From: Escherichia phage vB_EcoM_ESCO32
Strand: one strand, 5' to 3'
Length of the DNA: 64,000 nucleotides
Sequence record: OM386658.1
The translations under genes and the position numbers were made by a program. Every line of letters begins with the position of its first letter. Position 1 is the stretch's first letter. Below the pieces are notes generated by a model that ran no database searches, was not told the DNA's origin, and worked only from the letters and a program-made list of their open reading frames with translations. Positions 58,675-59,432 of the stretch are shown piece by piece.

Positions 58675-59432
58675 TTATGAATCTGGAATTAATTTTTTCA
58701 TAGCCGTATCCAGTTCTCTTATTGTTCTCTGTTGACCACGTTTAATATCCGCATCTTTAACGTGAAGATCTTGTACATAGTCTTCAAATGTTAAATATTC
58801 ATAAATCTTAAGTAGATAATCTACACCATAATTATCTAACGAGGACAAGGTTTCGGAGGTATTCTTAATTACCTTACAAAGAATTACTTCATACCATGTC
58901 AAGCTAAGGGTTTGTGAGGCAATTTCAATTGCTGATTTAATTGCCGGACTTAACTCTTCGCTAGAGTCTCTATTCCTTGAAATTGGGTCAACAGTTTTCC
59001 GAAACCTCGTTTGAAAAAAGGGGCATAGTTCACCTCAAGAACTTTTGCAGCTAAATCAACAACTAATTCTGGGTGAGCAAAAAACAATTCATCAAAATTA
59101 TCGGAAACACTGTGACCTGCTTCTGTGTAAACTTCATCTAAAATTTTACGTAAGAATGCGGCTAAGTTTTTTTCTTCCAGACCACTGAATAACTGGATCA
59201 GCGCCATAGCAATACGAGCTTCTAGATCTTCATCTGCTGACATAAGAGCAGTATTATACATTGTCATAGGAACAGCTAGTACACTACCTAGTTCTGGAAT
59301 CCTTTCAAAAACTTTAGTTGGACTCCACTTGAGAACTCTAAATTTTACACTGCGTCCTTCATCCAGATCAATTTCAACCATTACTTCTGGACGAGCAAAT
59401 TTTGCAATAGTATTATCTTTTTGTTGTTCCAT
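58675..59432 (-). CDS. tail assembly chaperone, predicted -1 frameshift fusion product (gpGT-like)
   Basis: The -1 frame is open from 59034 to 58675 and overlaps the last 85 nt of the 58950-59432 ORF; slippery site at 59013-59019. Predicted fusion about 250 aa. Confidence 0.4.
58950..59432 (-). CDS. tail assembly chaperone (gpG-like), short product
   Basis: 160 aa acidic protein directly upstream of the tape measure gene; 3' end overlapped by a -1 frame ORF with a slippery heptamer. Confidence 0.4.
   Translation of the reverse strand: MEQQKDNTIAKFARPEVMVEIDLDEGRSVKFRVLKWSPTKVFERIPELGSVLAVPMTMYNTALMSADEDLEARIAMALIQLFSGLEEKNLAAFLRKILDEVYTEAGHSVSDNFDELFFAHPELVVDLAAKVLEVNYAPFFKRGFGKLLTQFQGIETLAKS
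59013..59019 (-). promoter_or_regulatory. -1 programmed ribosomal frameshift slippery heptamer
   Basis: Minus-strand mRNA reads gcc ccT TTT TTC aaa in the zero frame (U_UUU_UUC); the -1 frame opens only 7 codons upstream of it. Confidence 0.45.

What the first reader, a model, noticed from the sequence alone, without database searches (positions are those of the whole stretch)
58675..59432. Canonical -1 programmed frameshift site (U_UUU_UUC) in the tail assembly chaperone gene pair
On the minus strand the 160 aa ORF (58950-59432) is overlapped over its last 85 nt by a -1 frame that is open down to 58675. The -1 frame opens just 7 codons upstream of the slippery heptamer T_TTT_TTC (plus-strand 59013-59019, read gcc ccT TTT TTC aaa in the zero frame). 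This is the gpG/gpGT arrangement found upstream of tape measure genes and supports the tail-gene assignments around it.
Basis: seen in the sequence. Interest (0 to 1): 0.45.

Follow-up and report, generated by a model that had tools for sequence, protein, structure and literature searches.

The report
Tail chaperone -1 frameshift site
A phi92-like E. coli phage very probably makes a short and a long form of its tail assembly chaperone by ribosomes slipping back one base at a conserved T_TTT_TTC, the textbook lambda G/GT trick, here real and conserved but missing from every genome annotation inspected.

Summary
On the minus strand, the 160-aa tail assembly chaperone gene (58950-59432; Pfam Phage_TAC_15) contains T_TTT_TTC (59019-59013) in the phase ccT TTT TTC. 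A -1 frame opens at 59034 and runs to 58675, just before the tape measure gene. The predicted fusion is 252 aa.

It is not chance. Of 89 in-frame slippery heptamers in the window, only the two overlapping ones here precede a -1 ORF longer than 31 codons.

The window is a Justusliebigvirus, 99% identical to phi92-like coliphages. The heptamer, its phase and the -1 extension are kept in all 61 analysable related loci (31 distinct contexts, at least 7 named genera). The preceding codon encodes Cys, Pro or Ser but always ends in T. The stretch between the chaperone stop and the first possible -1 start evolves as coding sequence. A distant relative, Rheinheimera phage Barba, uses lambda's G_GGA_AAG near the same place.

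No conserved downstream RNA structure exists. A Shine-Dalgarno-like GAGGTG 11 nt upstream may stimulate slipping.

No inspected record, database protein or paper found gives the fusion for this clade. Verdict: a new member of a known kind, modest interest, not tested experimentally.

The parts
58950..59432 (-). Gene G: tail assembly chaperone, short form, 160 aa, made by standard decoding (homologue of phi92 gp132).
   Evidence: ORF list and translation. Pfam PF21822 Phage_TAC_15, E = 6.7e-22, 78.8 bits against a cut-off of 22. phrog_3840 'tail assembly chaperone', 4.4e-54.
59013..59019 (-). Slippery heptamer T_TTT_TTC, read ccT TTT TTC in the zero frame. Proposed site of the tandem -1 slip of the two tRNA-Phe.
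   Evidence: Phase verified. Present in the same phase in all 61 analysable related loci and invariant across their 31 distinct 81-nt contexts. H_HH.U_UU.Y motifs are among the most efficient -1 heptamers in E. coli (PMC4066793).
59016..59022 (-). Second, overlapping slippery heptamer C_CCT_TTT in the same phase. It would give the same protein. Found only in the Stephanstirmvirinae-type lineages.
   Evidence: Lineages of the rV5 type have tgT TTT TTC instead, so this heptamer is not the conserved element.
59031..59036 (-). Shine-Dalgarno-like GAGGTG, 11 nt upstream of the heptamer. Possible stimulator that pairs with 16S rRNA. It overlaps the TGA that closes the -1 frame upstream.
   Evidence: Duplex energy with the anti-SD is -9.9 kcal/mol, reached by 0.6% of random 18-mers of the window. 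An equivalent element at the same spacing occurs in 15 of 26 distinct upstream contexts and is weak or absent in the other 11. Its function is inferred.
58675..59013 (-). T extension: 112 codons plus stop in the -1 frame, reached only by frameshifting. Residues 1-21 are a variable linker that overlaps the end of G. Residues from about 22 to 112 form a conserved, predicted helical domain. Public records call residues 38-112 a separate 75-aa 'hypothetical protein' (phi92 gp133).
   Evidence: Translation. phrog_16039, phrog_10409 and phrog_8811. tblastn alignments begin at residue 1-3 in Phapecoctavirus and rV5-like phages. No ATG, GTG or TTG between 59034 and 58902. The -1-frame codon-position pattern holds upstream of the first start codon.
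56676..58655 (-). Tape measure protein gene, 659 aa, TTG start preceded by GGAGG. It is the expected client of the chaperones and begins 20 nt after the T stop.
   Evidence: phrog_16051, 1329 bits. ORF list. Sequence read.
59478..59957 (-). Tail tube protein gene, immediately upstream of G.
   Evidence: Pfam PF11681, 4.5e-06, and phrog_280, 1.8e-36. Annotated as tail tube protein in EC_OE_11 and PaulScherrer.
60016..61422 (-). Tail sheath gene.
   Evidence: phrog_205, 3e-104, and DUF3383, 1.1e-21.

Best explanation
This is the G/GT-type programmed -1 ribosomal frameshift of a myovirus tail assembly chaperone.

1. Most ribosomes read gene G (59432-58950) to its stop and make the 160-aa chaperone.
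2. A minority slip. With tRNA-Phe on TTT in the P site and on TTC in the A site (ccT TTT TTC, 59019-59013), both tRNAs re-pair one base back on TTT TTT. In this lineage the slip could also happen one codon earlier, on C_CCT_TTT.
3. Decoding then continues in the -1 frame through 112 more codons to the TAA at 58677-58675. The result is a 252-aa fusion with the junction ...NYAPFF|QTRFRK....
4. By analogy with lambda gpG/gpGT (PMC5009743), the shared G part would coat the tape measure protein. The rare T domain would recruit the tube protein to start polymerising around it. Neither form would end up in the virion.

Shown here: the anatomy, the phase, the clade-wide conservation of the signal, and the protein-coding nature of the extension upstream of any start codon.

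Inferred: that ribosomes really shift, how often, the role of the upstream GAGGTG, and the binding partners.
For: 1. Anatomy and phase are exact.

2. Not chance. Only 2 of 89 in-frame heptamers in the window, both in this gene, precede a -1 ORF longer than 31 codons. The median -1 open length is 5 codons.

3. Context. Sheath, tube, chaperone (PF21822), the -1 ORF, tape measure and Dit-like protein lie in that order.

4. Conservation of the nucleotide signal.
- All 61 analysable related loci keep T_TTT_TTC in the same phase together with a -1 ORF. They comprise annotated records from 7 named genera (Justusliebig-, Phapecocta-, Vequinta-, Seuna-, Mydo-, Henuna- and Plateaulakevirus) and 43 IMG/VR contigs; on a 44th contig the -1 ORF runs off the end.
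- The -1 ORF extends 248-293 nt past the G stop in the 13 annotated loci and 43 IMG/VR loci measured.
- In the 31 distinct 81-nt contexts, the codon before the Phe-Phe pair is TGT, CCT or AGT. These encode three different amino acids, yet the third base is always T.
- The Phe codons are always TTT then TTC, while the third positions of neighbouring codons vary.

5. The extension is translated from upstream of any start codon.
- No ATG, GTG or TTG lies between 59034 and 58902.
- Among relatives the first possible -1 start falls anywhere from -9 to +249 nt, without a Shine-Dalgarno sequence.
- Gene callers chose six different starts that cut into a conserved domain.
- In the 16 codons between the G stop and the first start, differences per site at positions 1, 2 and 3 are 0.39, 0.31 and 0.64. 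The annotated short ORF gives 0.38, 0.27 and 0.60.
- tblastn alignments begin at residue 1-3 of the extension.

6. Site turnover. Rheinheimera phage Barba1A has a homologous chaperone and T domain but no Phe-Phe or T run. It carries lambda's G_GGA_AAG in phase, 54 nt before the stop.

7. Motif efficiency. H_HH.U_UU.Y heptamers are among the most efficient in E. coli (PMC4066793).

8. A related proposal exists. A conserved -1 frameshift at a GTTTTT motif was proposed for the chaperone of the related Vandenendeviridae, with the same motif noted in Andersonviridae (PMC12846349).
Against: - There are no protein, ribosome-profiling or genetic data.
- No conserved or unusually stable RNA structure follows the site. 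Shuffle z-scores for the 70 nt downstream run from -1.2 to +1.3 in 11 lineages. Efficiency would therefore rest on the heptamer and perhaps the upstream Shine-Dalgarno-like element, which 11 of 26 contexts lack.
- Phe139 and Phe140 are invariant in the chaperone protein alignment A1, apart from the Barba chaperone, which was not in A1. Part of the heptamer's conservation could therefore be protein constraint.
- In rV5-type lineages the -1 codon just before the T run is CTG, ATG or TTG, so internal initiation cannot be excluded there. It is CCC in this window.
- The AlphaFold model of the T extension is poor (pLDDT 59.8), so no fold-level link to known T domains could be made.
Confidence: 0.88

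Rival explanations
1. Transcriptional slippage. RNA polymerase stutters on the run of six T and adds one U to some mRNAs. Normal translation of those mRNAs then gives the same fusion.
For: The site contains a T6 homopolymer preceded by C4, and the product would be indistinguishable at the protein level. Sharma et al. suggest transcriptional slippage or indel mutation as possible reasons why U7 and A7 runs are avoided in E. coli genes.
Against: - From general knowledge, efficient slippage by bacterial RNA polymerase needs runs of about 8-9 or more. Here the run is exactly 6 in every lineage and never lengthens.
- The run always sits in the X_XXY_YYZ phase.
- The Barba relative has G_GGA_AAG, the classical ribosomal site, and no long homopolymer.
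Confidence: 0.04
2. Two separate genes. The downstream ORF (phi92 gp133, 75 aa from the TTG at 58902) is translated on its own, as public records annotate it, and the overlap and heptamer are incidental.
For: The records inspected annotate it this way or leave it out. The protein databases hold it only as 64-84 aa ORFs.
Against: - No Shine-Dalgarno sequence precedes the TTG (upstream gcctcacaaacccttagc).
- The position of the first start codon is not conserved, ranging from -9 to +249 nt.
- Called starts differ among relatives and cut into a conserved domain.
- The 16 codons upstream of the TTG show the coding pattern in this frame, and protein similarity begins at the heptamer.
- The heptamer's synonymous sites are invariant.
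Confidence: 0.05
3. Chance open frame. The long -1 ORF and the heptamer have no function.
For: T-rich heptamers are common in this AT-rich genome; the window has 89 in-frame heptamers.
Against: A -1 frame open for 112 or more codons occurs at 0.3% of codon positions. The ORF matches three PHROG families. It is conserved down to about 26-30% identity, in Aeromonas phages among others, and in the Rheinheimera phage Barba1A.
Confidence: 0.01

Closest known systems
Phage lambda gpG/gpGT -1 programmed frameshift (Levin, Hendrix and Casjens 1993; Xu, Hendrix and Duda 2004, 2013, 2014; reviewed in PMC5009743)
   Same: - Two overlapping ORFs lie between the major tail or tube gene and the tape measure gene.
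- The second ORF is in the -1 frame and has no start of its own.
[quoted passage not shown]
- The arrangement is conserved in relatives despite divergent sequences.
- From general knowledge, lambda needs no obligatory downstream structure. None is found here either.
   Different: - The heptamer is U_UUU_UUC (plus an overlapping C_CCU_UUU), not G_GGA_AAG.
- The host is a 145-150 kb contractile-tailed phage.
- The chaperone belongs to Pfam Phage_TAC_15, with no sequence similarity to lambda gpG shown here.
- A Shine-Dalgarno-like element lies 11 nt upstream.
- Ratio and function are untested.
Proposed -1 frameshift in the chaperone of Vandenendeviridae (Pseudomonas phage Adele and other Pakpunavirus), with the same motif in Andersonviridae (PMC12846349, 2025)
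   Same: - Those are related myovirus clades.
[quoted passage not shown]
- The downstream ORF is routinely mis-annotated as a hypothetical protein.
- The argument rests on an uninterrupted -1 frame across divergent genomes.
   Different: - The conserved motif there is given as GTTTTT. In this window the run is preceded by C (ccccTTTTTTC); rV5-type relatives do have GTTTTTTC.
- In the passages read, that paper's chaperone-locus analysis did not extend to Stephanstirmvirinae or Vequintavirinae.
E. coli dnaX -1 frameshift (A_AAA_AAG with an upstream Shine-Dalgarno-like sequence and a downstream hairpin)
   Same: A Shine-Dalgarno-like sequence lies about 10-11 nt upstream of a canonical heptamer. 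That is within the 6-17 nt range used by Sharma et al..
   Different: There is no downstream hairpin. The product is a C-terminally extended protein, not a truncated one. The Shine-Dalgarno-like element is not universal in the clade.
Phage T7 gene 10A/10B -1 frameshift (general knowledge; cited as a poly-T precedent in PMC12846349)
   Same: The slip occurs on a U-rich heptamer that ends in UUC and is decoded by tRNA-Phe in an E. coli phage. It yields a minor, C-terminally extended form.
   Different: It involves a capsid protein, not a chaperone, and the genomic context differs.

Membership tests
G/GT-type tail assembly chaperone frameshift (Xu, Hendrix and Duda 2004) | The gene pair lies between the major tail or tube gene and the tape measure gene. 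| tested here: met
   The tube gene is at 59478-59957, G at 58950-59432, T runs down to 58675, and the tape measure gene is at 56676-58655.
G/GT-type tail assembly chaperone frameshift (Xu, Hendrix and Duda 2004) | The downstream ORF overlaps the 3' end of the upstream ORF in the -1 frame and lacks its own initiation signal. | tested here: met
   The overlap is 85 nt. No ATG, GTG or TTG occurs for the first 44 codons of the open -1 frame. No Shine-Dalgarno sequence precedes the first TTG. The start position is not conserved among relatives.
G/GT-type tail assembly chaperone frameshift (Xu, Hendrix and Duda 2004) | A canonical slippery sequence X_XXY_YYZ lies inside the overlap in the correct phase. 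| tested here: met
   T_TTT_TTC at 59019-59013 and C_CCT_TTT at 59022-59016 are both in phase.
G/GT-type tail assembly chaperone frameshift (Xu, Hendrix and Duda 2004) | The arrangement is conserved in divergent relatives. | tested here: met
   All 61 analysable loci (31 distinct contexts) keep both the site and the -1 ORF. Barbavirus keeps the -1 ORF with a different canonical heptamer.
G/GT-type tail assembly chaperone frameshift (Xu, Hendrix and Duda 2004) | The fusion protein is made at a low fixed ratio, is required for tail assembly, and is absent from virions. | not testable with these tools
   This needs mass spectrometry, western blots and genetics. No such data for this clade turned up in the literature searches.
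Pfam PF21822 Phage_TAC_15 | The sequence scores above the family's gathering threshold. | tested here: met
   78.8 bits against a cut-off of 22, covering residues 29-143 over profile positions 3-125 of 127. All 45 database homologues also carry PF21822.
dnaX-like stimulated -1 frameshift | A Shine-Dalgarno-like sequence lies about 6-17 nt upstream of the heptamer. | tested here: inconclusive
   It is present in the window (GAGGTG, 11 nt, -9.9 kcal/mol) and in 15 of 26 distinct contexts, and weak or absent in 11. The amino acids it encodes (Glu-Val) partly explain it.
dnaX-like stimulated -1 frameshift | A stable stem-loop or pseudoknot lies 5-9 nt downstream. | tested here: not met
   The 70 nt downstream are no more stable than shuffled sequence in 11 lineages. 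Synonymous changes in relatives break the long-range helix seen in the window.
Transcriptional slippage sites | A homopolymer run of about 8-9 or more A or T (threshold from general knowledge). | tested here: not met
   The run is exactly six T in every lineage. The Barba relative has no such run.

The most novel reading that the evidence does not exclude
The most novel reading not excluded concerns how the signal works in this clade. The phi92-type version may be an unusual composite with no RNA structure: two overlapping heptamers (C_CCU_UUU_UUC, a 10-nt slippery tract) plus a Shine-Dalgarno-like GAGGTG at a fixed distance. In the phi92 lineage alone there may also be a 9-bp long-range helix (59006-58998 with 58857-58849). 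Its 5' arm starts 6 nt after the site, and its 3' arm lies beyond the G stop, where only frameshifted ribosomes travel. Frameshifted ribosomes would then melt their own stimulator, giving feedback that sets the G:GT ratio.
Probability: 0.07. Interest if true: 0.45.

Novelty: new member of a known kind. Interest (0 to 1): 0.2.

Why it matters
The value is mainly in annotation.

- Phi92-, phAPEC8- and rV5-like phages are popular therapy and biocontrol candidates. About 340 GenBank records carry this locus.
- Each of the 18 related records inspected feature by feature lists the long chaperone form as a truncated 'hypothetical protein' or omits it, and none has a joined CDS.
- Recording the 252-aa product corrects the gene model and confirms the tail-gene assignments.
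- It also gives a clean case of selection on a nucleotide recoding signal. The third base of the preceding codon stays fixed across three different amino acids, and a distant relative has swapped in a different heptamer.

It does not change the understanding of frameshifting or of tail assembly.

Tried and rejected
1. Downstream stimulatory structure. The 93 nt after the site fold at -17.6 kcal/mol, z = -1.2. The 70 nt after the site are not more stable than shuffles in any of 11 lineages. Rejected.

2. Long-range helix.
- A 241-nt fold (z = -2.9) pairs GGUUUCGGA (59006-58998), starting 6 nt after the heptamer, with UCCGAAACC (58857-58849).
- In ESCO5, FKP3, KP2025, phiWec186 and phiWec188 the 3' arm carries synonymous changes (TCG, TCA, ACA) that break the pairing, with no compensating change in the 5' arm.
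- It is treated as fortuitous or lineage-specific.

The T extension alone, with 16 homologues, gave pLDDT 59.8 and pTM 0.27. The model is all-helical with a disordered first 19 residues. That is too poor for a fold search, so none was run.

4. Solved structures. A sequence search against the PDB found nothing meaningful; the best E-value was 0.17, to a CARD domain.

5. Search for an annotated or natural fusion.
- Two searches of the 5.8-billion-protein collection returned only G proteins of 151-175 aa and T fragments of 64-84 aa.
- 18 related records inspected feature by feature carry no joined CDS. A 19th, WPEC1, is rearranged at this locus and is not counted.
- None of the feature names in the sampled search listings suggests a fusion.

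6. Literature. Searches for frameshift together with rV5, phi92, Stephanstirmvirinae, Phapecoctavirus, Justusliebigvirus or phAPEC8 found no description for this clade. Only the sister-clade proposal turned up.

7. Internal initiation. Considered because rV5 ORF50 is annotated from a CTG just before the T run, and two lineages have ATG there. It cannot apply to this window, where that codon is CCC.

Full report
**What is in the sequence**

On the minus strand an ATG at 59432 opens a 160-aa ORF that ends at 58950. TTTTTTC lies at 59019-59013, 413 nt into that ORF. The zero frame therefore reads gcc ccT TTT TTC aaa, the X_XXY_YYZ phase needed for a tandem -1 slip.

The -1 frame is closed by a TGA at 59037-59035 and is then open from 59034 to the TAA at 58677-58675. 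That is 119 codons, with 85 nt of overlap and 275 nt beyond the stop of the first ORF. A slip at the heptamer gives a 252-aa protein with the junction ...VLEVNYAPFF|QTRFRKTV....

It missed a second in-phase heptamer, C_CCT_TTT at 59022-59016, which overlaps the first and would give the same protein.

**Is it more than chance?**

I took 64 long ORFs of the window (19,253 codon positions) and found 89 in-frame X_XXY_YYZ heptamers. The -1 frame is open for a median of 5 codons. Only the two heptamers of this gene are followed by more than 31 open codons (112 and 113), and only they run past the stop of their own gene.

**What the window is and what surrounds the site**

The region is 99% identical to phi92-like coliphages of the genus Justusliebigvirus, subfamily Stephanstirmvirinae, including EC.P2, PaulScherrer and muut. 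The 112-aa extension is 100% identical to phi92.

Gene order on the minus strand:

| Gene | Coordinates | Evidence |
|---|---|---|
| Sheath | 60016-61422 | phrog_205, DUF3383 |
| Tube | 59478-59957 | PF11681, phrog_280 |
| Chaperone G | 58950-59432 | PF21822 Phage_TAC_15, E = 6.7e-22; phrog_3840 |
| -1 ORF (T) | 58675-59034 | phrog_16039, phrog_10409, phrog_8811; no known function |
| Tape measure | 56676-58655 | phrog_16051; TTG start after GGAGG |
| Dit-like protein | 55850-56560 | PF21821 |

This is the canonical position of a G/GT pair.

**How public records treat it**

I inspected 18 related records feature by feature: EC_OE_11, muut, PaulScherrer, ESCO5, SKA64, 241Ecol014PP, phi92, FKP3, rV5, PVP-SE1, KpS8, pEp_SNUABM_01, 4L372XY, phiWec186, phiWec188, KP2025 and Barba1A, plus WPEC1, whose locus is rearranged. 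None annotates a joined CDS. The downstream part is a short 'hypothetical protein' with a different start in different records, or it is absent.

In the 5.8-billion-protein collection the G part matches only proteins of 151-175 aa, and the T part only fragments of 64-84 aa that begin at six different columns of a conserved domain.

Literature searches found no description of this frameshift for phi92, rV5, Stephanstirmvirinae or Vequintavirinae. A 2025 paper proposes the same kind of -1 frameshift, at a conserved GTTTTT motif, for the related Vandenendeviridae and notes the motif in Andersonviridae (PMC12846349).

**Comparative test of the signal**

T_TTT_TTC sits in the same phase, with a -1 ORF running to just before the tape measure gene (or before an inserted endonuclease gene in the Aeromonas phage), in records from seven named genera: Justusliebigvirus, Phapecoctavirus, Vequintavirus, Seunavirus, Mydovirus, Henunavirus and Plateaulakevirus. 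A scan of IMG/VR with an alignment of the chaperones gave 44 further loci. All 44 have the heptamer in phase and a -1 ORF extending past the G stop, by 248-278 nt in 43 of them; on L049 it runs off the contig end after 206 nt.

One of the two peptide patterns used in that scan contains the Phe-Phe pair. The scan is therefore biased towards the amino acids, but not towards the codons.

Across 31 distinct 81-nt contexts:
- The two Phe codons are always TTT then TTC.
- The preceding codon is TGT (16), CCT (14) or AGT (1), so the amino acid changes but the final T never does.
- The third positions of neighbouring codons vary freely, for example TAC/TAT at 20/11 and CTG/CTT/CTA.

This is selection on the nucleotide heptamer, not only on the protein.

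**Comparative test of the extension**

In the window no ATG, GTG or TTG occurs in the -1 frame between 59034 and the TTG at 58902, and that TTG has no Shine-Dalgarno sequence. Among 35 distinct extensions the first possible start lies anywhere from -9 to +249 nt relative to the shift site.

Differences per site at -1-frame codon positions 1, 2 and 3, among 14 distinct Stephanstirmvirinae-type sequences:

| Segment | Pos. 1 | Pos. 2 | Pos. 3 |
|---|---|---|---|
| Overlap with G | 0.43 | 0.29 | 0.25 |
| 16 codons between the G stop and the first start | 0.39 | 0.31 | 0.64 |
| Annotated short ORF | 0.38 | 0.27 | 0.60 |

The stretch upstream of the first start is therefore translated in the -1 frame. 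In the overlap the most variable site is the third position of the G frame, which fits a loosely constrained linker. tblastn alignments to Phapecoctavirus (59% identity) and rV5-type phages (31%) begin at residues 1-3 of the extension.

**Site turnover**

Rheinheimera phage Barba1A (Barbavirus, 80 kb) has a homologous chaperone, 31% identical to that of rV5, and a homologous T domain in the -1 frame. It lacks the Phe-Phe pair and the T run. Instead it carries G_GGA_AAG, the lambda heptamer, in phase a few codons downstream of the homologous position and 54 nt before the stop. The mechanism is kept while the signal is replaced. This argues for ribosomal -1 frameshifting and against anything specific to a T run.

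**Stimulators**

No local structure follows the site. The 93 nt downstream give z = -1.2, and the 70 nt downstream give z between -1.2 and +1.3 in 11 lineages.

A 241-nt fold of the window (z = -2.9) contains a 9-bp helix between 59006-58998, which starts 6 nt after the heptamer, and 58857-58849. Relatives break it with synonymous changes in the 3' arm and make no compensating change. I do not count it.

Upstream, GAGGTG (59036-59031) lies 11 nt before the heptamer. It pairs with the 16S 3' end at -9.9 kcal/mol, a value reached by 0.6% of random 18-mers. An equivalent element at the same spacing is present in all 15 distinct contexts of the Stephanstirmvirinae and rV5 types. It is weak or absent in 11 other contexts, some of which encode the same Glu-Val with other codons. 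It is a plausible lineage-specific enhancer within the 6-17 nt range used by Sharma et al., but it is inferred.

Both heptamers belong to the H_HH.U_UU.Y class, which is among the most efficient in E. coli (PMC4066793).

**Mechanism and function**

The best-supported reading is the lambda model (PMC5009743). An abundant short chaperone and a rare frameshift-extended form share an N-terminal part that binds the tape measure protein. The T domain recruits the tube protein. Neither form is in the virion.

The T extension is predicted to have a disordered first 19 residues followed by three helices, but the model is poor (pLDDT 59.8). I made no fold comparison.

The anatomy, the conservation and the coding status are shown here. 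The shift itself, its efficiency and the binding partners are inferred.

**Rivals**

- Transcriptional slippage on T6 is unlikely. The run is short, its length is fixed, and the Barba relative has no such run.
- Independent translation of a 75-aa gene is contradicted by the missing and non-conserved start, and by the coding signature upstream of it.
- A chance ORF is excluded by its conservation.

**Verdict**

This is an ordinary G/GT-type frameshift in a phage clade where it has not been annotated, so it is a new member of a known kind. Interest is low to modest (0.2). Confidence that the fusion is really made by -1 ribosomal frameshifting is about 0.88.

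Noticed in passing
window 59455-59474: A terminator-like hairpin (AAAGGGCAGAAATGCCCTTT followed by a T run, 8 bp, readable on both strands) sits in the 45-nt gap between the tube gene stop and the chaperone start. It could attenuate transcription, so that chaperone and tape measure are made in smaller amounts than sheath and tube.
   Followed up: no
window 56608-56670: A strong terminator-like hairpin (10 bp, 6 GC, 56670-56647) lies right after the tape measure stop. It is followed by a promoter-like site matching 11 of 12 positions, with an extended -10 TG (56637-56608), ahead of the Dit-like gene. The chaperone and tape measure genes thus look like a bracketed unit.
   Followed up: no
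window 58998-59006 and 58849-58857: A 9-bp long-range complementarity, GGUUUCGGA with UCCGAAACC, is flanked by a further 5 bp. Its 5' arm starts 6 nt after the slippery site and its 3' arm lies beyond the G stop. It appears in both the minimum-energy and centroid folds (z = -2.9), but relatives do not keep it.
   Followed up: yes
L062 (Rheinheimera phage Barba1A) 1630-1636: The homologous chaperone uses G_GGA_AAG instead of T_TTT_TTC. This is a replacement of the slippery site within one protein family.
   Followed up: partly
L013 (Aeromonas phage 4L372XY) from 1567; L062 1932-2570: In two distant relatives an extra gene lies between the T extension and the tape measure gene. One is annotated as an endonuclease. 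The other is a reverse-strand putative DNA-binding protein. They look like mobile insertions at this junction.
   Followed up: no
L017 (Escherichia phage WPEC1, PV659873) 1561-3946: In this 161-kb record the chaperone gene is followed by a block of reverse-strand small ORFs and a tRNA-Gln instead of the T extension and tape measure gene. The T match is split into two pieces. This is probably a rearranged or chimeric assembly.
   Followed up: no
hits H28, H51, H52, H54, H87 and others (MG0656xx 'Campylobacter phage' records): More than 20 records labelled Campylobacter jejuni phages are 99.6-100% identical at this locus to phi92-like or rV5-like coliphages. The host labels look doubtful.
   Followed up: no
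L009 (rV5) 1183-1551: rV5 ORF50 is annotated as starting at a CTG immediately before the T run, so it overlaps gp051. In rV5-type lineages that -1 codon is always NTG, because the zero-frame codon is Cys TGT. In two lineages it is ATG with GGAG 11 nt upstream, so internal initiation there cannot be excluded.
   Followed up: partly
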